Source of the DNA: an uncultured Bacilli bacterium
GTDB taxonomy: Bacteria; Bacillota_I; Bacilli_A; RFN20; CAG-288
Length of the DNA: 64,000 nt
Assembly (NCBI GenBank): GCA_944371605.1
Contig: CALVXU010000015.1
Coordinates: 9,686 to 73,685, forward strand
Direction: 5' to 3'
Positions 9,966 to 26,520 of this stretch are shown here, in pieces. Position numbers and translations under genes: made by a program. A model generated the notes under the pieces. It was not told the origin of the DNA. It ran no database searches and saw only the letters and a program-made list of their open reading frames with translations. Numbering within the stretch: position 1 is the first letter of the stretch; the number at the start of each line of letters is the position of its first letter.

Positions 9966-11489
9966 TCATTTCGTTTTTGATATGACTTCATTGATTTTTT
10001 TAATCAGTAATTGAACCGCAGGTGTCGAAGATAAGTTTTTATTTGGCAAAGCCCCTAAATAATAACCCAGGTGTCCATCTAATGGTAAAAGTTTATCATC
10101 TGGATATATGATGTAAAGCGAATCTACCGCATTTCTGATCAATTTGTCATTTTTAGTTTTAAAAGCGAATTGCACATAATCATCGATCATATCATCTAGA
10201 TAGCTTATTTTCTTATCATCGATCACCATCGGTAAAACATTCTTGCTGCTTCGATATTTCATCTCTAGAACAAAGGCGTTGATAAACTGATCATTTTCGA
10301 ATAATTCGATTGTGAAGTCTGGCCTATTCTTTCGACTATTGATGGTCACTAACTCATCATTGACATCTTCGCGATAATTTTTGATTATTGCATCATAATT
10401 AACAACAGCTTTGTAAGTTCCCATCAAATAGATAAGCGGCTTCATGCCAGGATGAAAATCCTCTAATCTTATATCAGCACTTCCTTCCATTTGAAAACCA
10501 CATTCTGACAAGACAGCATTGATGATGACAAGACCATATAGTTCATATAGAACAGAGGTTCTTTTTCTTTGATACACTTTAACTGCTTCTTTATTTAATA
10601 AAGCCTTATTAAAATTGTTGACTAAATGATAATCAGTATTATAAGCATATGAATAATTCATTCTCGTTTCTTTAACATTATTAAAAAATGGTTTGTTTCT
10701 AAATTCACATAATCTATCCAATAATTTTCTCATTATAATAAGACACTCAGTATATTCATTTTGCATATATGAATCATTGATATATTCGATAGCATTCTTC
10801 ATAGAAATGATGATATTCCTCAAAGAGTGTTTTAAACGTCTGTTATAACCAGTATCATAAGATAAAACCTTTTTAACTGAATAATATCCTTTGCGACTAG
10901 AGAATCGATTGTTTAAACGCTCAGTCTTATAATCTTGAACAGCTTTGCTTTGTGAGAGATAGTATTTCTTGCAGATGATTTTATCTGGATTTCGTTCTAT
11001 ACGAGATATCGCCTTTTGAATCTTCAAATCATATTCATTCAATATTCTTTTCAATCTGAGCAAATAATCATTTTCAACCCGTGAAAAATTGATTGTCAAA
11101 TGCTTTTGAAATCGTTCTAAAGCGCTGACTAATTCCACTAGATTTTGTTCGTCTTTTATGTTGGTAACAACTGAAAAACTAGAGACTTTGTCTAACGTAG
11201 AAGTCTTTAATTCATATGTTCCCGGCAGATAATAAAGATTGGGATATTGTGATGAAGAAATCAAAAATTTATCACCTGGTTTTAATAACAGAAAACTATC
11301 TTTAGTTTGCTTAACTTCTTTATCAAAGAAAGTTTCTGCTTCTAATAGCAAGTCTTCATCCCCAGTATTAGAGACATAGACTTCTTCGGTATCAGCAAAG
11401 AGGTCATCTTGTTGAAATGGTAAAAGAAATGTTCGCTCAGATAGTACTCTATTCGGAAAAGAAAATGTGATTTTAGCGCAAGAAGCCAT
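9966..11489 (-). CDS. McrC-like PD-(D/E)xK nuclease subunit (DUF2357/DUF524-like)
   Basis: The C-terminal region has RPDFTIELFEN...AFVLEMKYRS, a D...E.K nuclease motif. There is a 17-nt overlap with the upstream McrB-like ATPase gene. The pairing and gene order match McrBC-type systems. Confidence 0.6.
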   Translation of the reverse strand: MASCAKITFSFPNRVLSERTFLLPFQQDDLFADTEEVYVSNTGDEDLLLEAETFFDKEVKQTKDSFLLLKPGDKFLISSSQYPNLYYLPGTYELKTSTLDKVSSFSVVTNIKDEQNLVELVSALERFQKHLTINFSRVENDYLLRLKRILNEYDLKIQKAISRIERNPDKIICKKYYLSQSKAVQDYKTERLNNRFSSRKGYYSVKKVLSYDTGYNRRLKHSLRNIIISMKNAIEYINDSYMQNEYTECLIIMRKLLDRLCEFRNKPFFNNVKETRMNYSYAYNTDYHLVNNFNKALLNKEAVKVYQRKRTSVLYELYGLVIINAVLSECGFQMEGSADIRLEDFHPGMKPLIYLMGTYKAVVNYDAIIKNYREDVNDELVTINSRKNRPDFTIELFENDQFINAFVLEMKYRSSKNVLPMVIDDKKISYLDDMIDDYVQFAFKTKNDKLIRNAVDSLYIIYPDDKLLPLDGHLGYYLGALPNKNLSSTPAVQLLIKKINEVISKTK

Positions 11490-13380
11490 AGGTTAAGAAT
11501 TCCTTCTTCTTATTGGCAATCTCTTTCATAGAGAGTTCAAAATCTGAAATATCACTATATTTTTTTAAAAAAGTAACCAATTCTCCTTCTTTAGCACTAT
11601 AACCTAATAATTCCTTTAGGCTATCACTTTCGCCTCTGATTCTTTCTAAAATAGTTTGCTTGAACGCATAGTCAAAAGCCTGTGAACCAGTGAAATTATC
11701 CGAGTGTTTTGCGCAATTCAAATAGATAGCAATATTTTTTATCGTTCGATAGGATATACCAAAATGATAATCTTTTTGTCTTAATAATTCGTCTAATTCA
11801 TCGAAAAAATCTAATTGCTTATCATCGAAGAAGTTCCAATAATTAAACGTGGTGAAGTCCCGGTCTCCAAGGAGAGTTTTTAGTTCTTGATTATTGCTAT
11901 AAGAGATTTTTTTGTTCTCTCCTTGTTCCAAGATATCTTTTTTTGCTTGTGCGAATTTAGCTTTTGATAGATGGATGATAAAAGAACGATCGATCAGTCT
12001 ATCAGAAAGACTAGTTGTTGTCTCATCGACATTAATAGTTCCGATAAAGATGATATTAGTTCCTAATTTGATGACTGGCGGATAACATTTGCCATTTAAA
12101 CATTTGTTTGGTTCAGTCGTGTCTTCTAGAGAATAAAGTCTCAAATACCTTTCATTTGGATCTCTTTCAAGCACTGATAAAAATGGTGCAAACCAATGTT
12201 CGACTTGAGCTAAGTTCATCTCTTCAAATAACACCAAATGCATCAATTCAGGATGATTGTTAGCATGGATAAGAAAGTCAGTAAAACCAGTTTGTGATGG
12301 ATGGTAAATATGGTCATTTGGACTATAATAGCCCAAAAGATCGGTAGGATCAGTATAGCTAGGATAAATCGGTAAAAACAAAAAAGTCTTATCTCGCTCT
12401 GTCAAATTAAAAAAGTGAGCATATTCTAATGGCAATCTTGTTTTCCCGGTTCCAGACATACCAGCTAAAATCGTCAAAGAACCGCTCTTGATGCAAGAAT
12501 GAAAATTATAAATATCACTCTTTGAGTAATGAAGATTAACTTGTTCTAAATGAGTGCTTAAATCATCTAAAATTTGTTCCTCTTTATCCATCATAGCTTT
12601 CTTAGCTAAGAGTTTTTCAGGATTTTCAGCTATAAAAGAACTACTATTCTGTGAGAAGCATTTGATGACCATCTCTTTTGAAAAAAATCTTCGAGTTTTT
12701 TTGCCAACAGAATAGAGGCCACCATTTTTCTCTAATTGATATGTGATAAATTTAGTCTCGATAATTTTATCGTCAGCTAATTTGACTGTTCGGTAATCGA
12801 CTTTTTGAAGCTCAACTTTAAGAAGCTTATTTCCACCATCCAAATAAACCGGCAAGTCAAAGTAATCATTATTCCAATCATCGATGATGATCGGCTGATG
12901 TTGTTTGAGTAGTTTTTCTTTATTAGGACTGATTTGTGGCAGTAAAAAGAAAGAAGTAAAACGCGAATTATCTAATTTTTCTAAAGTGATACGTGTATTT
13001 ATTTTCTTTGAAATAAGTATTTTATCATTAGAATTCATCAATTCATATTTAGGGATAAAAGCTACAAAAGCATCTTTAAGACTATTATAAATATAGTTAG
13101 CTCTTTCCTCCAAATCAGAATATCTGCTTTTGTTAGTTCCCAAACATTTCAAAATAAAATCATCATAGCAATAATAAAAGGATTCACTATCATTAGAAGT
13201 ACGATAACACAAATCATCGTTTTCTTTGATTAATAACGGTTCATCAGATAACGCAGAAAAATAAACGCTGACAGCTGGCACTTTGATATCATTTTTAATT
13301 TCTACTCTCACTAGCTTAGCCAAAATATGATATTGCTGCTTGTTCAATATCTCTATTTGTTCTTGTAAAGTTTCATTCAT
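11473..13380 (-). CDS. McrB-like AAA+ (AAA_5) NTPase with a long N-terminal domain of unknown specificity
   Basis: Walker A LAGMSGTGKTRL. Walker B and the McrB-type signature LVLFEEMNLAQVEHWFAPFLSVLE (compare DEiNRa...f..ll.llE). Downstream FIGTINVDETT and SDRLIDRSF (sensor/arginine region). Confidence 0.7.
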   Translation of the reverse strand: MNETLQEQIEILNKQQYHILAKLVRVEIKNDIKVPAVSVYFSALSDEPLLIKENDDLCYRTSNDSESFYYCYDDFILKCLGTNKSRYSDLEERANYIYNSLKDAFVAFIPKYELMNSNDKILISKKINTRITLEKLDNSRFTSFFLLPQISPNKEKLLKQHQPIIIDDWNNDYFDLPVYLDGGNKLLKVELQKVDYRTVKLADDKIIETKFITYQLEKNGGLYSVGKKTRRFFSKEMVIKCFSQNSSSFIAENPEKLLAKKAMMDKEEQILDDLSTHLEQVNLHYSKSDIYNFHSCIKSGSLTILAGMSGTGKTRLPLEYAHFFNLTERDKTFLFLPIYPSYTDPTDLLGYYSPNDHIYHPSQTGFTDFLIHANNHPELMHLVLFEEMNLAQVEHWFAPFLSVLERDPNERYLRLYSLEDTTEPNKCLNGKCYPPVIKLGTNIIFIGTINVDETTTSLSDRLIDRSFIIHLSKAKFAQAKKDILEQGENKKISYSNNQELKTLLGDRDFTTFNYWNFFDDKQLDFFDELDELLRQKDYHFGISYRTIKNIAIYLNCAKHSDNFTGSQAFDYAFKQTILERIRGESDSLKELLGYSAKEGELVTFLKKYSDISDFELSMKEIANKKKEFLTYGFLR

Positions 13381-15704: not shown

Positions 15705-17528
15705 TCAATTTTTAATTGAGATATAACTGATATTACCATTTGTATGTGTGACTTTATAATAGAACTGAGCTAAATTAGTCCTAGTGAGAAATTCGATATT
15801 TTTAACTGAAGTATCTAAATTTAAGCCACGATTTCTGCTAAAAGAATAGCCGGTATAAAGAATTGTCCCTGTTGTATCCAATAGCAATGAGCACTGGTTG
15901 AAAGCATCCATAAACTTTCTGCTAAAGCGAGCATTTTCAAATTTTTCATTTGTGCTACTCACTTTTGATGTGACTTTGATTTCATCACTACTGGTCTCGA
16001 CTGCAGCTAGTAAATTATCTTTCGAATTATAAGTATCAAAGCGAGTGACACCAACATATCTTGTAGATAAGTCACCTATGATGTCATCAGAAGATTCATT
16101 GACATAATGATAATAACCAATTTTATCCTTATAAACAAAATTTTGTTCTGAATAAGTTTCGATTGAAGCAAAGCCATTACTCAATGGTTTACTTTCTAAA
16201 ATATAATCAGGTCTAGAAAAGAACGATTGTTTTTTACCATTACAATAAAATAAAAGTCCATCACCAGTCACATCATTGATTCCGATCATATTGCCTTCTC
16301 CAGCACAAGAGACCGAATAATAAGTATTCAATGAATTTGGAGATATCTCTTCAGTTTCTCCATCAGTCTCTTCTCCATCTTCAGAAGAAGAATTTAAAAA
16401 TGATTTGATATCTCCTGAACCTGTTATGGTAAAGGTATAAGAATTTTCTTCATCAACAGTTCCATCAGATTTTAATTTGAATCCAATGAATGAACTGCTA
16501 GCTAAAGATTTATGAGCCACGTGCCACCAAGTCGGTTTATGATATGAATAAGAAACATTCGCATCTAAGCTATTAAAAGTGACAGGAACATATTGTCGCA
16601 AATTAGTTTTTCCATCATCATTGAGGACAAACATCTCGCTTCTCACTATTCCTAATTTTGTATCATTACCTGTCGCTAAAACACATAGCGCTTTTTTGGT
16701 CGGAAGAACAAGGTATTGAACATTCTCACAATCTAAAAGTTTTTGTGAGAAACAATCGGTCGAAAGAATTTCATATTCCTTTTTATTGTCGTCGTCATCA
16801 TAAAAGATAGCTACGCCATTTTGATAAACAACACGATTCTGTCTATCAATATTATCCGTGTATGTCATAGATATATAATCATTAGTATATATGAAATCCA
16901 CCAAAGAAGCATCTTCATATGAAGATTTAGTCAATTCGTAATAAATAGGAAAGCCAGAATTACTATTTATGTTTGATTTTGTTTTTAGATAATAATCATC
17001 TTCTGGACCCGGATCATCATGATTGATAATCTGGGCGTTGATGGTATAACTATTAGTTATAGATATGGAAACATCAGAGAGATTTTCAAATGTAACTCCT
17101 AAATCGACACCTGTTGTTGTATAAAGAGCATAGTTATCCCCTAAGTCAATAGCTGCAAATGGCATATCATCATATATGTGAATAGGTTCATCTGAATATG
17201 GAACAGTCGTGAGATAACTTCTGCTTGTAATAGTATCGCCTAACAAGTAAATATCAACCGTATCTCCATGAGCTATATAACAAAAGCGAGAATAATTTAC
17301 ACCATCGTATTTAGGAAATTGTAAATCTTCAAAATATGAGTTGCTGACAATTGTTGGGGCACCTAAATTTGCATTTCCATTAAAGTCGAAGAAAGAGCCA
17401 TAACTATAAGAACTCTCAACTATATCAGTGTAATCTCTATCATGATAAGAATAACCTGGCGAGTCAAACAAACAAGATGTCAATAATAGTACTGATAAAG
17501 CACAAGGAATAATTGCAATTTTTTTCAT
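15705..17528 (-). CDS. Lipoprotein, last gene of the ESCRT-III/Vps4-like operon
   Basis: MKKIAIIPCALSVLLLTSCLF has a signal peptide with lipobox LLTSC. The 607-aa product is Ser/Thr/Tyr/Asp-rich and looks beta-rich and extracytoplasmic. It begins 18 nt after the preceding gene. Confidence 0.7.
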   Translation of the reverse strand: MKKIAIIPCALSVLLLTSCLFDSPGYSYHDRDYTDIVESSYSYGSFFDFNGNANLGAPTIVSNSYFEDLQFPKYDGVNYSRFCYIAHGDTVDIYLLGDTITSRSYLTTVPYSDEPIHIYDDMPFAAIDLGDNYALYTTTGVDLGVTFENLSDVSISITNSYTINAQIINHDDPGPEDDYYLKTKSNINSNSGFPIYYELTKSSYEDASLVDFIYTNDYISMTYTDNIDRQNRVVYQNGVAIFYDDDDNKKEYEILSTDCFSQKLLDCENVQYLVLPTKKALCVLATGNDTKLGIVRSEMFVLNDDGKTNLRQYVPVTFNSLDANVSYSYHKPTWWHVAHKSLASSSFIGFKLKSDGTVDEENSYTFTITGSGDIKSFLNSSSEDGEETDGETEEISPNSLNTYYSVSCAGEGNMIGINDVTGDGLLFYCNGKKQSFFSRPDYILESKPLSNGFASIETYSEQNFVYKDKIGYYHYVNESSDDIIGDLSTRYVGVTRFDTYNSKDNLLAAVETSSDEIKVTSKVSSTNEKFENARFSRKFMDAFNQCSLLLDTTGTILYTGYSFSRNRGLNLDTSVKNIEFLTRTNLAQFYYKVTHTNGNISYISIKN

Positions 17529-20665: not shown

Positions 20666-22105
20666 TCAATTCCTCCCCTTCAGTTTAAATTCAGGCATCT
20701 TTACTTTTTTAAACTCACTATCTAATAGGCATAGTTGATTTTTAATATCTTGTCTCATCCTAATAGCTCTCGAGAGACAATATTTATCGAACAAATCCAA
20801 GTCCACATCTGATACTTTGCGATAATGCGGGAATAAGATTTTCAAATACGCTGTCGCTATTCTCTTCACCGCACTGATATCACGAGTGTCACCATCAACT
20901 TCTTCTAAAAGTTCGTCGACCAAATGATCATAAACAGAATCGTTTCTAAAAAGATGTAGCATCTCAGTAAAATACTCACTGTTTAAAGATAAACCAGTCA
21001 CTTTCATCGACTCGCTCATCCGAGGAATGTCCCAACCACGAATGAAGCCATGAATACGATCTAATAAAGCCGAATCTCTAAAAATCATCGGCAGTTCAGA
21101 AAACATATCGACATTAGTATCCATATCAGCTTCTTTGATATTTCCTAAAAAAACCATTCCAGCATCAGCGATAGTCTTTTTAGTGCCAACAGCAAATTCA
21201 CCATTTTCTAGATATCCTTTCAATGCTCCTTGCATCTCATTCATATCTGGAAAACGAATGGTTTTTATCTCATCTAAAGCGACAACATCATAATTACCGA
21301 TGAGTCCGACCATATGATAGCGCATATCATAAAACAGCTTGGCTCTAGTCATCACACCACCAGAATTGAGCCATACATATTTAGATAAGCGAGAAAAAAC
21401 ATATGATTTTCCAGTCCCCTTCGGTGCCAGTTCAATCAGATTAAGACGCTTTTGAGCGAAAGGTAAAAGTCGAGAAATCATTGTCAGTCGTTCTTCTTCA
21501 TCAGCAAAAGAAGAAGCATTATAATCCATCGCACCCAAAACTAATTCAATCCATTCTTCGATAGAAAATTCTTTTCTGATATTACAAAAGTAATTCGCAT
21601 CTAATCTGTATGGCTTAAAGGCAGTAAACTTCTTAAGATTTATCTTTCTTAAAGTTTTTTTGCCTTGCACGTATTCCATTTTATTCAGAGTGACAACTCC
21701 CCAAAATTCACTATCTAAAGAAACTTTTTCTTCCTTGATTTTTTCCCATGCAAAATCAGATACAACAGTCGAATCAAAATCGACATCTAAATCCGGCATA
21801 GCAAAGGAAACATATCCTTCAGTGAGATTGATATTGATTTTTAATTTTGCTAAAAAAGTTATAGTACCAGAATTCAAAATAATCTCATCTAATAACAGCG
21901 GCCACGAAGTTTTATCCGGAATCAATTCCTTGACTTTTTCAGCTATCAAATTGATGTCATAAGTTCCGTCTTGATTAGCGTATTTTTTAACGATGTAATC
22001 ACGGATAAAAGCAGGAAGCGATAAAGAAGCGAAGAGTGAAGAAGCTTCTTTTTTATATAAAGACATCGGTTCAAAAAACTGTTGTAATTTTTCTTGAGTA
22101 CTCAT
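20666..22105 (-). CDS. BrxL-N-terminal / TIGR02688-like P-loop ATPase (no Lon-protease domain)
   Basis: Walker A LIELAPKGTGKSYVFS and Walker B YDVVALDEIK. The N-terminal region (LPAFIRDYIVKKY...KVKELIPDK...FLAKLKININLTEGYVSFAMPDL...FWGVVTL) is collinear with my recollection of the BrxL N-terminus (VPVYVLEYLLGMY...VK.IL..NYVRPDE...VIDKVTVKLNEK.D.YEA.L.NLG...GGIWC). At 479 aa it matches the TIGR02688 size class rather than full BrxL. Confidence 0.6.
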   Translation of the reverse strand: MSTQEKLQQFFEPMSLYKKEASSLFASLSLPAFIRDYIVKKYANQDGTYDINLIAEKVKELIPDKTSWPLLLDEIILNSGTITFLAKLKININLTEGYVSFAMPDLDVDFDSTVVSDFAWEKIKEEKVSLDSEFWGVVTLNKMEYVQGKKTLRKINLKKFTAFKPYRLDANYFCNIRKEFSIEEWIELVLGAMDYNASSFADEEERLTMISRLLPFAQKRLNLIELAPKGTGKSYVFSRLSKYVWLNSGGVMTRAKLFYDMRYHMVGLIGNYDVVALDEIKTIRFPDMNEMQGALKGYLENGEFAVGTKKTIADAGMVFLGNIKEADMDTNVDMFSELPMIFRDSALLDRIHGFIRGWDIPRMSESMKVTGLSLNSEYFTEMLHLFRNDSVYDHLVDELLEEVDGDTRDISAVKRIATAYLKILFPHYRKVSDVDLDLFDKYCLSRAIRMRQDIKNQLCLLDSEFKKVKMPEFKLKGRN

Positions 22106-22106
22106 A

Positions 22107-23576
22107 TTAAATTCCTAAATCATTTTCTTCGATCGGAGAAGAAATCTTAATCATGAATGAACATACTACATTTTTATCGAAAACATCCACTTGATATTCA
22201 CCTGCTTTTTCAATCTTAAAAAGATTGCTCTTATAATTTTTGATATCTTTAGTAGTAGCTACTTTTTGCCCATTCACAGAAATATAAATTGAATCATGTT
22301 GACCGCTTAGATAAAACTCAACCTGATAAAGATTTGTAGGACTATAGTCAAGTTCTCTATTCTTAACTATCAGTTCTTCATCAAGCGGAATATCTTGCTT
22401 AACACGGTTGTTTAGTGATTGTGTAGAAACATCATGAAGAGTCTTTTGAGAGCTATCGACTCCAGCATATTTTTCATATTCTTTAATATCTTTGATGTCG
22501 ATGTGTTTCCTAATTTCATCTGCCTCTCTGATAAAGTCTGCCATAGTGATATTGACAATCGTGTCACCTTTAAACGAAGCTACTAATGCGCGTTCTTTGG
22601 CTTTATCACATAAAAGGAACATATCAGCTCCAGAAAAATTATCAGTTATAGCCGCTAATTGATTAATGTCAACATCAGAATCCAAAGGTAATTTACTTAC
22701 ATTCTTAATAAGCATTCTTTTTCTTTCTTCATAATTTGGTAGTCTGATATAAATCTTTGTAGAAAAGCGGCCACTTCTTAATGCAGCACTATCAATACTC
22801 CAAGGTTTATTAGTAGAACCTAATAACAACAGATTAGGATTCTTTCCTGTGAAGCCATCAATCTGCTGTAAAAATTCATTTACACGGCGATCGTTATGTA
22901 TATCTAGACCGCGTGAGGCGAATAGAGTATCCATCTCATCGATGAAAATGATGCTTCTTTCATCTTTGCCTACAGCCTCAAATAATGAAGCGATATTTTT
23001 TTCAGATTCTCCAACCCACTTAGAAACAATATCAGATGAACGGACTAGATAAAACTTAGCTTTCACTTCATGGGCAACTGCTTTCGCTAACATCGTTTTA
23101 CCAGTGCCAGGCGGGCCATATAACAAAACTCCGCCACCGCTTTGTTTCTGATAAATCTTATATTTTTCTGGATACATCAAAGGATAGATCATGGCGATCT
23201 TTATCTCTTCTTTCGCCTCATCTAAACCGATGATATCATCGAATGAAACGTCTGGTGCTTCAGTGCATTGCCATATTTTTTTATCATCATCGCTATTAGC
23301 TTTATTTTTAATACCATTTGCTTTGTTTGTAGGAGCACGAGATGTATTCATGTTTTCTAATGTTAAATCATCAGCATATTTGACAAGTCTATTGGCTTTT
23401 TCTATCCGGGCTTTTTTTAATTCAGTTGTGGAAGATTTGCTCGCTAAAAGCAACTGCTGAGCAGCTAAATAATAATTGCGCTTAGCAAGATCAAGATTAC
23501 CATTAGCTTCATATTGTTTGGCTAAACGAAGATAATGGTCATATTTGTCCATTAAAAAGCTAACATTATTACCCAT
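22107..23576 (-). CDS. MIT-domain AAA+ ATPase of the Vps4/katanin/spastin (meiotic) clade, with an extra C-terminal beta-rich domain
   Basis: The N-terminus YLRLAKQYEANGNLDLAKRNYYLAAQQLLLASK...KARIEKANRLVKYADDL is MIT-like. The AAA core is VLLYGPPGTGKTMLAKAVAHE, SSDIVSKWVGESEK (compare Vps4 SSDLVSKWMGESEK), IIFIDEMD, GSTNKPWSIDSAALRSGRFSTKIYIRLP (compare Vps4 [25 protein letters not shown]). Confidence 0.8.
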   Translation of the reverse strand: MGNNVSFLMDKYDHYLRLAKQYEANGNLDLAKRNYYLAAQQLLLASKSSTTELKKARIEKANRLVKYADDLTLENMNTSRAPTNKANGIKNKANSDDDKKIWQCTEAPDVSFDDIIGLDEAKEEIKIAMIYPLMYPEKYKIYQKQSGGGVLLYGPPGTGKTMLAKAVAHEVKAKFYLVRSSDIVSKWVGESEKNIASLFEAVGKDERSIIFIDEMDTLFASRGLDIHNDRRVNEFLQQIDGFTGKNPNLLLLGSTNKPWSIDSAALRSGRFSTKIYIRLPNYEERKRMLIKNVSKLPLDSDVDINQLAAITDNFSGADMFLLCDKAKERALVASFKGDTIVNITMADFIREADEIRKHIDIKDIKEYEKYAGVDSSQKTLHDVSTQSLNNRVKQDIPLDEELIVKNRELDYSPTNLYQVEFYLSGQHDSIYISVNGQKVATTKDIKNYKSNLFKIEKAGEYQVDVFDKNVVCSFMIKISSPIEENDLGI

Positions 23577-24156
23577 TGAGTTTTTCCTGTAGTTTCTTAT
23601 CTAAATCAGCAAGAGATGCCTCGACATCATCCTTTTTGCCGTCTTGATTAATTTCTTCATTTATTAAAGACATGATTTCATCATTAGAAATATTACTGGC
23701 TTCAGAGACATTAGAGAATGAATCTTTAGAATCATCTAAAAACAGTTCCATTCTCTCTTGTTGTTTTTCAGTAGAAGCCATCGCTAAGCTGAATTGCTTA
23801 GAGACTTGTGCGAATTGCTTGTCATCTGTGAGTTTGACCATATCCTTAGAAAGAGAAGACATTCCATTCAAAAATTCAGACGTGGTTTGCAACATATCTT
23901 TCAAAGAGACCATGATTTCAAAATTGATTTTCATCTCACGAATCTTTTTCTCTTGTGCTAATGCACTTTTTAAAGCAGAAATCGCTAAAGATAGCTCATT
24001 ATCTAAGCCATGCAGCTTAGCTTCTTTAGCTTTTTCAATATAAATCTGTTTTTGCTCTTCTAACTTCTTCAATTGTTTCGTCATTTGAGCGATAGTTTTC
24101 TTCAAGGTTAACTTTTTTTCAAATTCTTTTTCTTCCTTACTTTTAAATATTGACAT
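23569..24156 (-). CDS. ESCRT-III (CHMP/Snf7)-like coiled-coil protein with C-terminal MIM-like helix
   Basis: 195 aa with a basic N-terminal half, an acidic C-terminal half and a long helical hairpin pattern. It is collinear with CHMP2-type proteins; for example, FAQVSKQFSLAMASTEKQQERMELFLDD aligns with LPQIQKIMMEFERQAEIMDMKEEMMNDAIDD. The C-terminus ASLADLDKKLQEKLNG resembles the MIM1 motif (CHMP2A ADLEERLKNLRR). Confidence 0.6.
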   Translation of the reverse strand: MSIFKSKEEKEFEKKLTLKKTIAQMTKQLKKLEEQKQIYIEKAKEAKLHGLDNELSLAISALKSALAQEKKIREMKINFEIMVSLKDMLQTTSEFLNGMSSLSKDMVKLTDDKQFAQVSKQFSLAMASTEKQQERMELFLDDSKDSFSNVSEASNISNDEIMSLINEEINQDGKKDDVEASLADLDKKLQEKLNG

Positions 24157-24727
24157 CTTGAGACTCCTCTTTCATATCTGATGAACTATTAGGTAAATCA
24201 TCACTTTCTTCAAACATCGCTAAAAGTTGATCATCGCTTTCATTGACCCCGTATATCTTATCATCTGGAGTATAAGACGCATTGACTTCATTAAAGACAT
24301 CATCAGCACTAGTCATAATCTCTTCACTCTTCACTTTAGTCTGCAATGCGCCATTCAAAAATTTAGCAAGGTTCTTTTGATCTGATAATAAATCCTGCAA
24401 AGATACATCTGAAGCAGCTTTAATAAAATCTTTATCGTCTAAAGCATCTTTAAGCTTTTTCAAAAGTTGTAAATTATAGAGCAAGTATAATGAACGTTGG
24501 ACTAAAGTTTGACGATCTTTTTTTAACGCTTCTATCTTCTTTGCATATAGAAGTCTAATATCACGATTCTTCTCTACTTTGCCTTTTTCTAATAGAGCTT
24601 GTTCTTCACGTGATTTTTGAATTATCTGCTCTTCAAGTGCTTGTTCACGATTATCTAATTCGATGATAGCATCAACAACTTCTTCACGTTTAAGCTTTTT
24701 AAATTTATTCTTCTTAAACGGCCACAT
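24143..24727 (-). CDS. ESCRT-III (Snf7)-like coiled-coil protein
   Basis: 194 aa with a basic N-terminus (MWPFKKNKFKKLKREE). It follows a Snf7-like pattern: ai.eL...e.LE....k.eee...L...G.....r....aKk.e.Lkk....l......l.n.q. The C-terminal tail is acidic (DDQLLAMFEESDDLPNSSSDMKEESQD). Its start overlaps the upstream stop in TGATG. Confidence 0.55.
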   Translation of the reverse strand: MWPFKKNKFKKLKREEVVDAIIELDNREQALEEQIIQKSREEQALLEKGKVEKNRDIRLLYAKKIEALKKDRQTLVQRSLYLLYNLQLLKKLKDALDDKDFIKAASDVSLQDLLSDQKNLAKFLNGALQTKVKSEEIMTSADDVFNEVNASYTPDDKIYGVNESDDQLLAMFEESDDLPNSSSDMKEESQDVNI

Positions 24728-25095
24728 CAGAATTTTTCCTCTTTAGTATCAATAGTAGTGACCAAGTTCTTTCTTTTCGTGATTGCTAATTTTAAATCAT
24801 TGATGCAGGAGATCAGCTTTTCACTAGCAAAATCAGTTTTTTTCAAGCACTTATTAACTTCAATCATCAAATCACCAATAGTGTTTTGGATATTTCTATC
24901 TGCCTTTTCACTATCAGCACGTGGGATGAGATATTTGATTTCCTCTCTCAAAGTTTTTAATTCCTTAGAAAGGTTGTCGTCTTTTCCTTCGACTAAATCA
25001 ACTAAAATATTCATCGAAGAAAGCATCTCAGAGATGCGATTCTTTGACTTAACCTCATCTTTATATGCAGAATTTTTATTTTTAAAAAAGAACAT
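24727..25095 (-). CDS. Small helical protein of unknown family (operon gene 2)
   Basis: An ORF of about 122 aa, predicted helical by composition. I moved the start to the ATG at 25095, 8 nt after GGAGG; the track start at 25110 contains the SD itself. Confidence 0.5.
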   Translation of the reverse strand: MFFFKNKNSAYKDEVKSKNRISEMLSSMNILVDLVEGKDDNLSKELKTLREEIKYLIPRADSEKADRNIQNTIGDLMIEVNKCLKKTDFASEKLISCINDLKLAITKRKNLVTTIDTKEEKF

Positions 25096-25119
25096 TTCCT
25101 TTTCCTCCAATCAATTCAA

Positions 25120-26235
25120 TCATCGAAGTTTTTGTCCACAATTAGGACAGAAGAGAGCATTTTCTGGAACACGAGCATGACAAGAAGGACACACACCATC
25201 TTCGATCAACTTAGTACCATCATTAGGACAGAACTTCATATTCCCACCAAATTTATTATGACAAGTGGGACAGACCATAGTGATAGAATGGGAACCAGAA
25301 ACAGGTTTAGCATTAGGAACTGATTTATTTCCATCTGTAGGCCATCCTAAAATTTTTAAAACATCATAATACTTATCAATATCTGAACTTTGTAAATCAT
25401 GTAAAATTTTCTCTCTTTCAAAGTTCTTATCATCTAATCTTTCTAATTCGGCGGCTATTTCCTTTGCATCTTTTTTCTCTTGCTCTTTATCTTTTAATTC
25501 TTTACGTCGTTTTTCGAGAGCTTGAATTTCAACCTCACTCGGAGAGATATTGCCGATAGTGAATGAGCAAACTTCTAAGCCATAATCATCACTGAACATC
25601 TGATTGATCTGTGTCTTAATATTTTCTGCGATATCTAATTTATATAAAGTTATTTCTTCAAAAGGAATATGTTTTTCCTTGAGCGTTTTATAAATATTAG
25701 GTTCAATGATAGATAAAAGTCTTTGCAATAAACGGATTTGTAAATCAGAGATTGTAAAATTCTTATCTGCTCCAACTAATTCTTGATAGAATTTTTGAGA
25801 ATTCTTTACACGTACTTCAAATTCACCAAATGCTCTCACATGAACCAAAATATCAGTAGCTTCATCGCGGAATGCGAAAGGCGTGCTAGTTCCCCATTTC
25901 ACAAGCAATCTAGCTGTTTTAGAAATAAAAACTAAATCAACTGAACAAGCACCTACTTTTCTAGCACTGAAAATTCCTTTTTTATAGTCAAATATCGGAT
26001 ATCTTCCGCCTTGTAAAACGTTCATCAGCATCCCGTCTTTCACAAACACCACTTCATGCGTTTGTGGAACAATAATTTCAGCTTCTGGATTTAAAACATC
26101 TGCTTGAAATCTCCAGAAAAGTGAATTGTTATCACCTTCAAATTTGATTTCTTTTAGATTTTTTAAATCCTTCTTATTCTTCTCATTGATCGAATCATCA
26201 TTGTTATTCAAATTAAACACACTTCTTTTTGCCAT
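25120..26235 (-). CDS. SPFH/Band-7-like protein with C-terminal double zinc ribbon (YdjI / COG4260-like)
   Basis: SLFWRFQADVLNPEAEIIVPQTHEVVFVKDGMLMNVLQGGRYPIF and LVFISKTARLLVKWGT fit the YdjI/virion-core-like SPFH family. The C-terminus CPTCHNKFGGNMKFCPNDG...CPSCHARVPENALFCPNCG holds two zinc ribbons. I moved the start to the ATG at 26235, 6 nt after GGGGGT. Confidence 0.7.
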   Translation of the reverse strand: MAKRSVFNLNNNDDSINEKNKKDLKNLKEIKFEGDNNSLFWRFQADVLNPEAEIIVPQTHEVVFVKDGMLMNVLQGGRYPIFDYKKGIFSARKVGACSVDLVFISKTARLLVKWGTSTPFAFRDEATDILVHVRAFGEFEVRVKNSQKFYQELVGADKNFTISDLQIRLLQRLLSIIEPNIYKTLKEKHIPFEEITLYKLDIAENIKTQINQMFSDDYGLEVCSFTIGNISPSEVEIQALEKRRKELKDKEQEKKDAKEIAAELERLDDKNFEREKILHDLQSSDIDKYYDVLKILGWPTDGNKSVPNAKPVSGSHSITMVCPTCHNKFGGNMKFCPNDGTKLIEDGVCPSCHARVPENALFCPNCGQKLR

Positions 26236-26520
26236 AGTGTACCCCCATACACACATATTTTATTTATTATATTAGAAAAAAAGTATACACACAATTAAAA
26301 ATATGTAACTTTAGTAGAATCCTAGTATAAAAATTCTCATTTTCAAATTTTACTAACTAAATGTTCCTAATGCTAAAATTAAATACTAAAAAACATAACC
26401 CATGTTGAATAAAATCTGAAAATTTGCATATATGATTGTGTGCCTACATATTACGTTTCGACATAGTAATCACTGTAATTATTTTTATCATGTAAAGTTT
26501 TAGAAGCTTACTGCTTAATT

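What the first reader, a model, noticed from the sequence alone, without database searches (positions are those of the whole stretch)
25120..26235. YdjI-like SPFH protein with a double zinc ribbon as the first gene, paralleling the Bacillus pspA-ydjGHI operon
Seen in sequence:
- The product combines an SPFH/Band-7-like core (FWRFQADVLNPEAEIIVPQTHEVVFVKDGMLMNVLQGGRYPIF...LVFISKTARLLVKWGT) with a charged coiled-coil linker.
- Two C-terminal zinc ribbons follow (CPTCHNKF...CPNDG; CPSCHARV...CPNCG).

Established knowledge: in B. subtilis the ESCRT-III-superfamily protein PspA is co-transcribed with ydjG (zinc ribbon), ydjH (membrane) and ydjI (SPFH plus Zn ribbon). YdjI helps localise PspA.

Inference: the operon here keeps the SPFH, Zn-ribbon and membrane-protein logic. 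It replaces PspA with Snf7-like subunits and adds a Vps4-like motor. This suggests an evolutionary bridge between Psp-type and ESCRT-type organisations.
Basis: partly seen in the sequence, partly recalled or inferred. Interest (0 to 1): 0.6.

Follow-up and report, generated by a model that had tools for sequence, protein, structure and literature searches.

The report
SPFH scaffold gene of bacterial ESCRT-TIR cassette
This gene encodes a soluble membrane-scaffold (SPFH) protein with two zinc ribbons; it is a fixed part of a mobile gene cassette in uncultured gut bacteria that also carries ESCRT-III-like and Vps4-like membrane-remodelling genes and a membrane-bound TIR immune-type protein, and it is a cousin, not the counterpart, of Bacillus YdjI.

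Summary
Window 25120-26235 (-) encodes a 371-aa protein with a PF13421 (Band_7_1) SPFH domain (E 1e-24), a conserved helical linker and two C-terminal zinc ribbons, the first a Cys3-Asp variant. Its model (pLDDT 82.5) matches HflK/C, stomatin, flotillin and prohibitin. It has no membrane anchor, like YdjI.

The gene is not a variable neighbour. In every related locus with enough flank (about 13) it sits beside a large protein with an N-terminal zinc ribbon and C-terminal transmembrane helices, which carries a Pfam TIR hit wherever I scanned it except L007. In 11 of them a ~115-aa protein and two ~195-aa helical proteins also follow, one of them ESCRT-III-like by fold ranking. A MIT/Vps4-like ATPase follows in 9 of the 10 whose contig reaches that far. 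BrxL, a trypsin-like protease and a lipoprotein vary.

Trees put all cassette-linked proteins in one clade (support 99). The one YdjG/YdjH-linked protein I could identify falls outside it (19% identity). The cassette has no TPM (YdjH-like) protein and no PspA.

So the gene is YdjI-like at family level and in logic, but it is not an orthologue. The "evolutionary bridge" reading is not supported. An SPFH-ESCRT link was already noted in archaea (Makarova 2024).

The parts
25120..26235 (-). SPFH-double-zinc-ribbon gene (371 aa; an alternative upstream ATG at 26256 would give 378 aa)
   Evidence: ORF; PF13421 1.1e-24, DZR 1.3e-7; SPFH fold; start supported by an SD-like GGGGG and by homologue N-termini
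25507..26115 (-). SPFH (Band_7_1) domain, about aa 41-243
   Evidence: Pfam match covers aa 48-250 of the 378-aa reading; model strands and helices with pLDDT about 90; HflK/C, stomatin and flotillin fold matches
25348..25536 (-). Charged helical linker (aa 234-296) holding the clade-specific motif ELERL-DK-FER...KYYxVLKILGW
   Evidence: Helices H234-269, H271-284, H286-296; nearly invariant A257, E265, D269, R274, L278, L281, K288, Y289, V292, K294; an HMM of this segment hits 72/105 cassette-side proteins and 0/111 on the other side
25216..25272 (-). Zinc ribbon 1, CPTC...FCPNDG (Cys3-Asp variant)
   Evidence: Columns C322, C325, C336, G340 invariant in 30 homologues; position 339 is Asp in the window and its five closest relatives, and Cys in the others
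25135..25191 (-). Zinc ribbon 2, CPSC...FCPNCG
   Evidence: C349, C352, C363, C366, G367 invariant; Zn_Ribbon_1 5.8e-9
26257..26520 (-). 264-bp AT-rich spacer upstream of the SPFH gene; candidate promoter region
   Evidence: Three sigma-70-like matches on the minus strand (26376-26347, 26346-26319, 26309-26282), no more than chance gives; upstream genes differ in every homologous locus
24727..25110 (-). Small helical protein (127 aa) that follows the SPFH gene in 11 of about 13 related loci (missing in L007; not found by BLAST in L021)
   Evidence: 9-nt gap after SPFH; homologues of 111-145 aa in L001, L003, L005, L008, L010, L011, L013, L015, L016, L022, L023; no Pfam family
24143..24727 (-). 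Helical protein E3a (194 aa); ESCRT-III-like status not shown here
   Evidence: Conserved in cassettes; no Snf7 signal by sequence; not significantly related to E3b
23569..24156 (-). Helical protein E3b (195 aa), probably ESCRT-III-like
   Evidence: Model pLDDT 80 with helices 7-48, 52-110, 113-146, 158-194; top 8 PDB fold hits are CdvB/CdvB2, CHMP2A has TMt 0.66, but E-values are 0.2-1; Snf7 PF03357 weak in 2 of 6 orthologues; collinear CHMP2A profile hit at E 1.3
22107..23576 (-). MIT-AAA ATPase, Vps4/CdvC-like (489 aa)
   Evidence: NCBIfam CdvC is the best family at 1.4e-60, below its cut-off; Sulfolobus Vps4 4lgm at 2.6e-51; MIT PF04212 at E 0.0064, below its cut-off; Vps4_C above its cut-off in the L005 and L010 orthologues
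20666..22105 (-). Short BrxL-like ATPase (479 aa); variable cassette member
   Evidence: TIGR02688 4e-116, above its cut-off; PADLOC BrxL 2.7e-174; absent from L001, L005, L010
17547..20669 (-). Zinc-ribbon-TIR-helical-5TM protein (1040 aa); the constant partner of the SPFH gene
   Evidence: TIR_2 1.1e-10; N-terminal CxxC...CxxC and 5 C-terminal TM segments, the same layout in every related locus; present in all loci with enough flank
15705..17528 (-). Lipoprotein (607 aa), last gene of the packed block in this branch
   Evidence: Lipobox LLLTSC; 34% identical to the 597-aa last gene of L001, E 2e-101; no Pfam family

Best explanation
The gene encodes a soluble, self-assembling SPFH scaffold of the PF13421 family. 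A helical stalk and two zinc ribbons follow the SPFH domain. It is a dedicated subunit of a mobile, operon-like cassette and usually the first gene in it.

Its obligatory partner is the large zinc-ribbon-TIR-multi-TM protein. I infer that this partner holds the scaffold on the cytoplasmic face of the membrane, as YdjG/YdjH do for YdjI in Bacillus subtilis. On that platform the scaffold would concentrate the small helical proteins (the 127-aa protein, E3a and the ESCRT-III-like E3b). The MIT-AAA Vps4-like ATPase would then remodel or disassemble their polymers.

Because the cassette carries TIR, and variably BrxL and a trypsin-like protease, and because it sits in island-like, changing genomic places, the whole is most likely a conflict system. 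That could be anti-phage defence, or a response to membrane damage coupled to a TIR output, rather than housekeeping envelope maintenance.

Shown here: the fold and domains, the lack of an anchor, the conserved gene linkage and the separate clade. Inferred: oligomerisation, docking on the TIR-TM protein, recruitment of the ESCRT-III-like proteins, and the defence role.
For: - Domains and fold.
- No hydrophobic segment in the SPFH protein, whereas all partner proteins have 3-7 C-terminal TM segments and an N-terminal zinc ribbon.
- Gene linkage in the window, L001, L003, L005, L008, L010, L011, L013, L015, L016, L021, L022, L023 and L007.
  - The SPFH/ZnR-TM pair is present in all of them.
  - The small protein and the E3a/E3b pair are present in 11 of about 13.
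  - The AAA ATPase is present in 9 of the 10 of these whose contig reaches that far.
- Genes in the window are packed with gaps or overlaps of 1-18 nt.
- All cassette-linked proteins form one clade: FastTree 99, IQ-TREE SH-aLRT 99. This includes the deep 28%-identical P0119.
- The conserved linker is specific to that clade.
- E3b is ESCRT-III-like by fold ranking. The ATPase is Vps4/CdvC-like.
- Precedent: YdjI is soluble, needs YdjG/H for membrane foci and binds PspA (PMC8581546). SPFH proteins form membrane cages (PMC10936438, citing Ma 2022).
- Island-like setting: an integrase next to L011, a different upstream gene in every locus, and an AAA_5 gene pair and a DEDDh exonuclease flanking the cassette in the window.
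Against: - No interaction, localisation or phenotype data exist for any member.
- PADLOC has no model for the SPFH, small, E3a, E3b or TIR-TM proteins, so the defence role rests on guilt by association.
- Two loci (L007, L021) keep SPFH, a trypsin-like protease and the ZnR-TM protein without the ESCRT-like or ATPase genes. The scaffold therefore does not need them.
- The ESCRT-III assignment of E3b rests on non-significant E-values. E3a has no such signal.
- No relatives were found in phage, plasmid or viral-contig collections.
- No RNA data were found, so co-transcription is untested.
Confidence: 0.55

Rival explanations
1. The scaffold serves mainly as a cage or regulator of the membrane effector (the ZnR-TIR-TM protein and, where present, the trypsin-like protease), in the way HflK/C encloses FtsH. 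It would keep the effector silent until triggered. It would have no direct contact with the ESCRT-III-like proteins, which would be a separate add-on module.
For: - The SPFH/ZnR-TM pair, often with a trypsin-like protease, is the only invariant part, and it persists without the ESCRT-like or AAA genes in L007 and L021.
- The best fold matches are HflK/C in complex with the FtsH protease.
- Band-7 domains coupled to trypsin-like domains are reported in conflict systems (PMC7159879).
Against: - In 11 of about 13 loci the small helical protein and the E3 pair follow the SPFH gene directly or within the block.
- L007's protein is nested among cassette-bearing lineages, so the reduced form looks like a loss.
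- The YdjI-PspA precedent shows a direct SPFH/ESCRT-III-superfamily contact (PMC8581546).
Confidence: 0.25
2. One reading: the gene is the YdjI counterpart of a Psp-type envelope-stress operon in which PspA was replaced by Snf7-like proteins and a Vps4 motor was added. On this view it is an evolutionary intermediate between Psp and ESCRT organisations, acting in housekeeping membrane repair.
For: - Same Pfam family and architecture as the YdjG/YdjH-linked protein. That B. subtilis YdjI itself belongs to PF13421 is from my own knowledge.
- A zinc-ribbon membrane partner recalls YdjG; pairwise E is 4e-4 over 49 residues.
- ESCRT-III-like proteins stand where PspA would.
Against: - It lies in a separate clade from the YdjG/YdjH-linked protein, with 19% identity.
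- There is no TPM/YdjH and no PspA, and the linker is different.
- The cassette is rare, patchy and in changing locations, with TIR, BrxL and protease genes. That profile fits a mobile conflict module.
- The zinc-ribbon similarity is generic.
Confidence: 0.1
3. The SPFH protein is a sensor rather than a scaffold. Its exposed zinc ribbons would recognise a phage or membrane-damage cue and switch on the TIR protein.
For: - The zinc ribbons are the most conserved residues, and a flexible segment (aa 301-315, pLDDT below 50) holds them away from the stalk.
- The first ribbon diversifies (Cys3-Asp in one branch, a single ribbon in P0119).
Against: Sensors in defence systems usually vary fast, whereas this protein is the best-conserved small component. 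No ligand or target is suggested by any search.
Confidence: 0.1

Closest known systems
YdjI (SamI) of the Bacillus subtilis pspA-ydjGHI (samGHI) operon
   Same: Both are cytosolic SPFH proteins with a C-terminal zinc ribbon and no membrane anchor. Both are encoded with a zinc-ribbon membrane protein and with ESCRT-III-superfamily proteins. YdjI is shown to bind PspA and to need YdjG/H for membrane foci (PMC8581546; bioRxiv 10.64898/2026.02.06.704340). The shared Pfam family (PF13421) is from my own knowledge for YdjI itself.
   Different: - Separate clade, with 19% identity to the YdjG/YdjH-linked proxy P0244.
- Two ribbons and a conserved helical linker here, against YdjI's low-complexity stretch (PMC8581546).
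- No TPM/YdjH and no PspA.
- The partner carries a TIR domain, and a Vps4-like ATPase is present.
- B. subtilis YdjI itself could not be fetched for direct alignment.
SPFH-coiled-coil-zinc-ribbon protein of archaeal 'Meth_adaptin' ESCRT loci (Methanosalsum zhilinae WP_013898576.1; Makarova et al. 2024, PMC10936438)
   Same: An SPFH protein with coiled-coil and zinc-ribbon parts, encoded beside ESCRT-III and Vps4 genes. The authors already drew the YdjI/PspA parallel.
   Different: It is archaeal, and its locus holds adaptin-appendage, GOLD and ProX genes, not TIR, BrxL or trypsin. The authors matched its SPFH to CDD cd3405 (cd03405), which from my own knowledge is an HflC-type model rather than the YdjI type. 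Recruitment may therefore be independent.
Cage-forming SPFH proteins: HflK/C, stomatin, flotillin, prohibitin
   Same: SPFH domain followed by a long helix; these are the best structural matches.
   Different: Those proteins have an N-terminal TM segment or hairpin and no zinc ribbons. Oligomer formation is untested here.
Archaeal/eukaryotic ESCRT-III plus Vps4 (CdvB/CdvC; CHMP-VPS4)
   Same: The cassette holds a MIT-AAA ATPase whose best family is CdvC and at least one protein whose best fold matches are CdvB and CHMP2A.
   Different: All sequence scores are below family cut-offs. The cassette is bacterial, mobile and tied to TIR and BrxL. A 2025 review states that a Vps4-like ATPase appears absent in bacteria (PMC7619361). 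Ravi et al. 2024 saw Vps4 transfers to bacteria, but with Snf7 displaced (PMC11237479).

Membership tests
PF13421 Band_7_1 / COG4260-type SPFH with C-terminal zinc ribbon | Significant full-length match to the PF13421 profile | tested here: met
   E 1.1e-24, 87.7 bits against a cut-off of 24, profile positions 5-206 of 211
PF13421 Band_7_1 / COG4260-type SPFH with C-terminal zinc ribbon | SPFH fold | tested here: met
   Model pLDDT 82.5; HflK/C, stomatin, flotillin and prohibitin are the top PDB folds, E down to 9e-8
PF13421 Band_7_1 / COG4260-type SPFH with C-terminal zinc ribbon | C-terminal zinc ribbon(s) | tested here: met
   DZR 1.3e-7 and Zn_Ribbon_1 5.8e-9; Cys columns invariant in 30 homologues, with ribbon 1 a Cys3-Asp variant
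YdjI/SamI orthologous group (ydjGHI module) | Soluble protein with no hydrophobic anchor | tested here: met
   No segment above the hydropathy threshold; YdjI is described as lacking an anchor (PMC8581546)
YdjI/SamI orthologous group (ydjGHI module) | Encoded with a YdjG-like (two zinc ribbons plus a C-terminal TM) and a YdjH-like (TPM domain) membrane protein | tested here: not met
   No TPM_phosphatase hit in any cassette protein. The partner is a ZnR-TIR-5TM protein that resembles YdjG only in topology. The YdjG/H-type context is seen in L019.
YdjI/SamI orthologous group (ydjGHI module) | Linked to a PspA/IM30 gene | tested here: not met
   No PF04012 hit among the cassette proteins. The rest of the window was not scanned exhaustively.
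YdjI/SamI orthologous group (ydjGHI module) | Groups phylogenetically with YdjG/H-linked proteins | tested here: not met
   The cassette clade (support 99) excludes P0244, which sits in a group of 73 rows (FastTree) or 19 rows (IQ-TREE subsample), each supported at 100 and on a long branch. B. subtilis YdjI itself was not available.
YdjI/SamI orthologous group (ydjGHI module) | Binds an ESCRT-III-superfamily protein and recruits it to the membrane | not testable with these tools
   Needs two-hybrid, pull-down or imaging experiments
Cage-forming membrane SPFH proteins (HflK/C, stomatin, flotillin) | N-terminal TM segment or membrane hairpin | tested here: not met
   The N-terminus is polar (MAKRSVFNLNNNDDSINEKNKK...) and there is no TM segment
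Cage-forming membrane SPFH proteins (HflK/C, stomatin, flotillin) | SPFH domain followed by long wall-forming helices | tested here: met
   Helices 234-296 follow the SPFH domain; 250-300 columns align to HflK/C and stomatin
Cage-forming membrane SPFH proteins (HflK/C, stomatin, flotillin) | High-order ring or cage oligomer | not testable with these tools
   No multimer prediction or experiment was available
Known anti-phage defence system components (PADLOC-DB 2.0) | Match to a defence-system protein model | tested here: not met
   The SPFH protein has no PADLOC hit. Only the AAA protein (IetA-like, 5.4e-37) and BrxL (2.7e-174) match.

The most novel reading that the evidence does not exclude
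Bacteria of a few uncultured gut lineages would carry a true ESCRT-type machine: an SPFH platform, ESCRT-III-like filaments and a Vps4-like motor, wired to a membrane TIR enzyme as an immune device. The SPFH ring, docked on the TIR-TM protein, would mark a membrane patch (for example a phage entry or damage site). It would nucleate ESCRT-III-like polymers that seal or shed that patch, while TIR signals or depletes NAD+. The SPFH/ESCRT-III partnership would then be a recurring design principle, seen in Bacillus (YdjI-PspA), in methanogens (Meth_adaptin) and here.
Probability: 0.3. Interest if true: 0.85.

Novelty: new variant of a known kind. Interest (0 to 1): 0.62.

Why it matters
SPFH scaffolds and ESCRT-III-superfamily polymers have been linked experimentally only once in prokaryotes (YdjI-PspA), and by gene context once more in archaea. 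Here a third SPFH subfamily is locked into a cassette with ESCRT-III-like and Vps4-like genes. This one is phylogenetically separate from the YdjG/H-linked type, and from what I could tell it also differs from the archaeal type.

This suggests that 'SPFH platform plus ESCRT-III polymer' is a recurring functional unit. The cassette is a compact seven-to-eight-gene bacterial system in which to test how the platform nucleates the polymer.

It also bears on the statement in recent reviews that bacteria lack a Vps4-type ATPase, and it ties membrane remodelling to a TIR immune-type output. I found no published description of this combination in five full-text searches.

Tried and rejected
YdjI did not surface among the top 150 representatives or in the profile word search. 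All ten cluster look-ups were uncultured metagenome proteins. I used the YdjG/YdjH-linked Vagococcus elongatus protein P0244 as a proxy. The 13-sequence one gave 6 genome loci and 9 metagenome loci.\n- Plasmids gave only distant SPFH hits (Ralstonia and others, 22-29% identity over half the protein). Phages and viral contigs gave nothing. There is thus no sign that the cassette is phage- or plasmid-borne.\n- Sequence searches of E3a and E3b against the PDB, singly and as profiles, gave nothing significant. E3a versus E3b, and the 127-aa protein versus either, are not significantly related by hhalign.\n- Homology between the zinc ribbon of the TIR protein and YdjG's ribbons was considered. Pairwise E is 4e-4 on a 49-residue Cys motif, which I judged generic and not evidence of common descent.\n- The promoter scan found no more sites than shuffled sequence does, and no minus-strand terminator upstream of the SPFH gene.
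Full report
**1. What is at the coordinates**

The ATG at 26235 is the likelier start. A GGGGG run lies 7-11 nt upstream, and homologues begin MAKK/MSKK at the aligned position. This gives a 371-aa protein.

Pfam finds PF13421 Band_7_1 (E 1.1e-24, almost the whole profile), the general Band_7 family (6e-8), DZR (1.3e-7) and Zn_Ribbon_1 (5.8e-9). An AlphaFold2 model built on 30 homologues has mean pLDDT 82.5. Its best PDB fold matches are HflK/C, stomatin, flotillin and prohibitin, with E from 9e-8 to 1e-4 over 250-300 aligned columns.

After the SPFH domain come three helices (234-296), a disordered stretch (301-315) and two zinc ribbons. Ribbon 2 is a classical CxxC...CxxC. Ribbon 1 reads CPTC...FCPNDG, so Asp stands where most relatives have the fourth Cys. 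The five closest homologues share this change. The protein has no hydrophobic segment.

**2. The neighbourhood**

Eight minus-strand genes are packed with gaps or overlaps of 1-18 nt:
- the SPFH protein;
- a 127-aa helical protein;
- two helical proteins of 194 and 195 aa (E3a, E3b);
- a 489-aa AAA ATPase;
- a 479-aa short BrxL;
- a 1040-aa protein with an N-terminal zinc ribbon, a TIR domain and five C-terminal TM segments;
- a 607-aa lipoprotein.

The ATPase's best NCBIfam family is CdvC (1.4e-60, below its cut-off). Its best single-domain PDB hit is Sulfolobus Vps4 (2.6e-51). Its N-terminus gives a weak MIT match (E 0.0064), and the orthologues in L005 and L010 pass the Vps4_C cut-off.

E3b gives weak Snf7 hits in 2 of 6 orthologues and a collinear CHMP2A profile hit at E 1.3. 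Its model (pLDDT 80, four long helices) has CdvB/CdvB2 as its eight best fold matches and CHMP2A at TMt 0.66, all with non-significant E-values. I rate E3b as probably ESCRT-III-like. E3a shows no such signal by sequence and is not demonstrably a paralogue of E3b.

**3. Is the SPFH gene a fixed member or a variable neighbour?**

I examined homologues from 73% down to 27% identity, in their contigs.

| Locus | Identity | Gene order |
|---|---|---|
| L001 | 73% | SPFH, small, E3a, E3b, AAA, TIR-TM, lipoprotein |
| L003 | 60% | same order as the window, without the lipoprotein |
| L005 | 43% | SPFH, small, TIR-TM, trypsin-like protease, E3a, E3b, double AAA with Vps4_C |
| L010 | 39% | SPFH, small, E3a, E3b, AAA, trypsin, 1487-aa TIR protein (TIR_2 7e-9) |
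| L008 | 37% | SPFH, small, E3a, E3b, AAA, trypsin, BrxL, TIR-TM |
| L011 | 27-28% | full cassette beside a phage-type integrase; this SPFH has a single ribbon |
| L016 | 41-42% | full cassette, but TIR-TM precedes SPFH (Anaeroplasmataceae MAG) |
| L013, L015, L022, L023/24 | 57-72% (to nearest reference) | partial or full cassettes |
| L007, L021 | 30%, 40% | only SPFH, a trypsin-like protease and the ZnR-TM protein |

Every large partner protein begins with a CxxC...CxxC ribbon and ends with 3-7 TM segments. All that I scanned carry a Pfam TIR hit except L007's.

The SPFH/ZnR-TM pair is therefore invariant. The small protein and the E3 pair are present in 11 of about 13 loci. BrxL, trypsin and the lipoprotein vary. 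The upstream gene differs in every locus, so SPFH starts the conserved block everywhere except L016.

**4. Relation to YdjI**

A profile search returned a named Vagococcus elongatus protein, P0244. Its gene is followed by a protein with two zinc ribbons and a C-terminal TM segment, and then by a TPM_phosphatase protein. Ravi et al. (PMC11237479) describe these as the YdjG and YdjH architectures.

The window protein is 19% identical to P0244 (E 2e-9). In a 216-sequence FastTree and a 63-sequence IQ-TREE (LG+C20), all nine cassette-type contexts fall on one side of a branch supported at 99. On the other side lie P0244, a reverse-transcriptase-linked member (L020), solo Erysipelotrichaceae genes and others. 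P0244 sits there in a long-branched group supported at 100.

An HMM of the conserved linker (ELERL-DK-FER...KYYxVLKILGW) hits 72 of 105 cassette-side proteins and none of 111 on the other side. The HMM was built from clade members, which favours that outcome. The cassette has no TPM protein and no PspA.

The gene is thus a member of the PF13421 SPFH-zinc-ribbon family and works in a YdjI-like setting: no anchor of its own, a zinc-ribbon membrane partner, and ESCRT-III-superfamily neighbours. It is a paralogous subfamily, not the YdjI orthologue.

**5. Mechanism**

Established knowledge:
- YdjI is soluble, needs YdjG/H to form membrane foci, and binds PspA (PMC8581546).
- SPFH proteins form ring or cage oligomers on membranes.
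- Vps4 disassembles ESCRT-III polymers through MIT-MIM contacts.

Inference: the SPFH protein assembles on the cytoplasmic membrane face through the ZnR-TIR-TM protein. It forms the platform on which the small helical proteins polymerise, and the ATPase recycles them.

TIR, BrxL, trypsin-like proteases, the changing locations, an adjacent integrase and flanking defence-like genes in the window (DEDDh exonuclease, an AAA_5 pair) point to a conflict system.

The main rival is that the scaffold chiefly cages or regulates the TIR-TM or protease effector, as HflK/C does for FtsH. The reduced loci L007 and L021 favour it. However, L007's protein is nested among cassette-bearing lineages, so its reduced form looks like a loss.

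**6. Comparison with the literature**

- Makarova et al. 2024 (PMC10936438) described archaeal 'Meth_adaptin' ESCRT loci that encode an SPFH-coiled-coil-zinc-ribbon protein, and they explicitly drew the YdjI/PspA parallel. Their table matches that SPFH to CDD cd3405. From my own knowledge this is an HflC-type model rather than the YdjI type, which would suggest independent recruitment. I could not test the sequence.
- Ravi et al. 2024 (PMC11237479) reported PspA-band-7 links, and Vps4 transfers to bacteria in which Snf7 is displaced.
- A 2025 review says a Vps4-like ATPase appears absent in bacteria (PMC7619361).
- Five full-text searches found no description of an SPFH-ESCRT-like-Vps4-like-TIR cassette in bacteria.

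**7. Distribution**

Genome hits are MAGs labelled uncultured Bacilli, Clostridiaceae and Anaeroplasmataceae. The sequencing runs that hold the window's locus and have a named source are chicken-gut or gut metagenomes. No phage, plasmid or viral-contig relatives were found.

**8. Verdict**

The SPFH gene itself is a new variant of a known kind. Its value lies in anchoring an apparently undescribed bacterial cassette and in showing a third, separate SPFH/ESCRT-III pairing.

Earlier notes of this scan on the neighbouring genes (e1-2889639 to e1-2889643) pointed the same way. I re-derived the parts I rely on.

Noticed in passing
window 24727-25110, 24143-24727, 23569-24156 (N-termini), and orthologues in L001-L016: All three small helical proteins start with a similar short motif: M-x-(F/W/I)-F-K-x-K (MFFFKNKN, MWPFKKNK, MSIFKSKE), conserved across loci. 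It may be a shared membrane-binding (H0-like) or docking peptide. hhalign aligned only this motif between the 127-aa protein and E3a.
   Followed up: partly
L020:4764-8882: A distant PF13421 SPFH protein (345 aa) in a Lachnospiraceae MAG lies between a reverse transcriptase (RVT_1, 400 aa) and a 607-aa metallophosphoesterase/5'-nucleotidase protein. This is a possible RT-based conflict module using the same scaffold family.
   Followed up: partly
L015:9971-11087: In one MAG the SPFH gene of an otherwise intact cassette is split into two overlapping ORFs of 101 and 302 aa. This is either a frameshift pseudogene or an assembly error.
   Followed up: no
window 15705-17528: The 607-aa lipoprotein with no Pfam family is the last gene of the packed block. 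It has a 34%-identical counterpart (E 2e-101) at the same place in L001 and L015. L007 has an unrelated lipoprotein there. This is an extracellular component of the cassette with unknown role.
   Followed up: partly
window 9966-13380: Just downstream of the cassette lie a 635-aa AAA_5 (McrB-like) protein and an overlapping 507-aa protein without a family. This may be a McrBC-like restriction pair, which would fit a defence island.
   Followed up: no
L018:7001-8197: A ~400-aa SPFH-double-zinc-ribbon gene is common in Erysipelotrichaceae (indexed in 145 blocks of the collection) and stands alone, without cassette, YdjG/H or PspA neighbours. A choloylglycine hydrolase gene lies next to it, and also next to the cassette in L003/L004; this is probably coincidence.
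   Followed up: no
L009:10001-13860 and L017:9914-16632: More distant SPFH-zinc-ribbon genes have different partners. In L009 these are a separate 277-aa zinc-ribbon protein and a 556-aa TM protein. In L017 they are a YidD-like protein, a DUF5050 protein and a TPR/Listeria-Bacteroides-repeat protein. The 'zinc-ribbon partner plus membrane protein' theme recurs in split form in L009.
   Followed up: partly
L029:132-3008: A 958-aa ORF in a human-gut contig begins with about 50 residues that are 58% identical to the N-terminus of cassette-type SPFH proteins. This may be a fusion or a mis-assembly.
   Followed up: no
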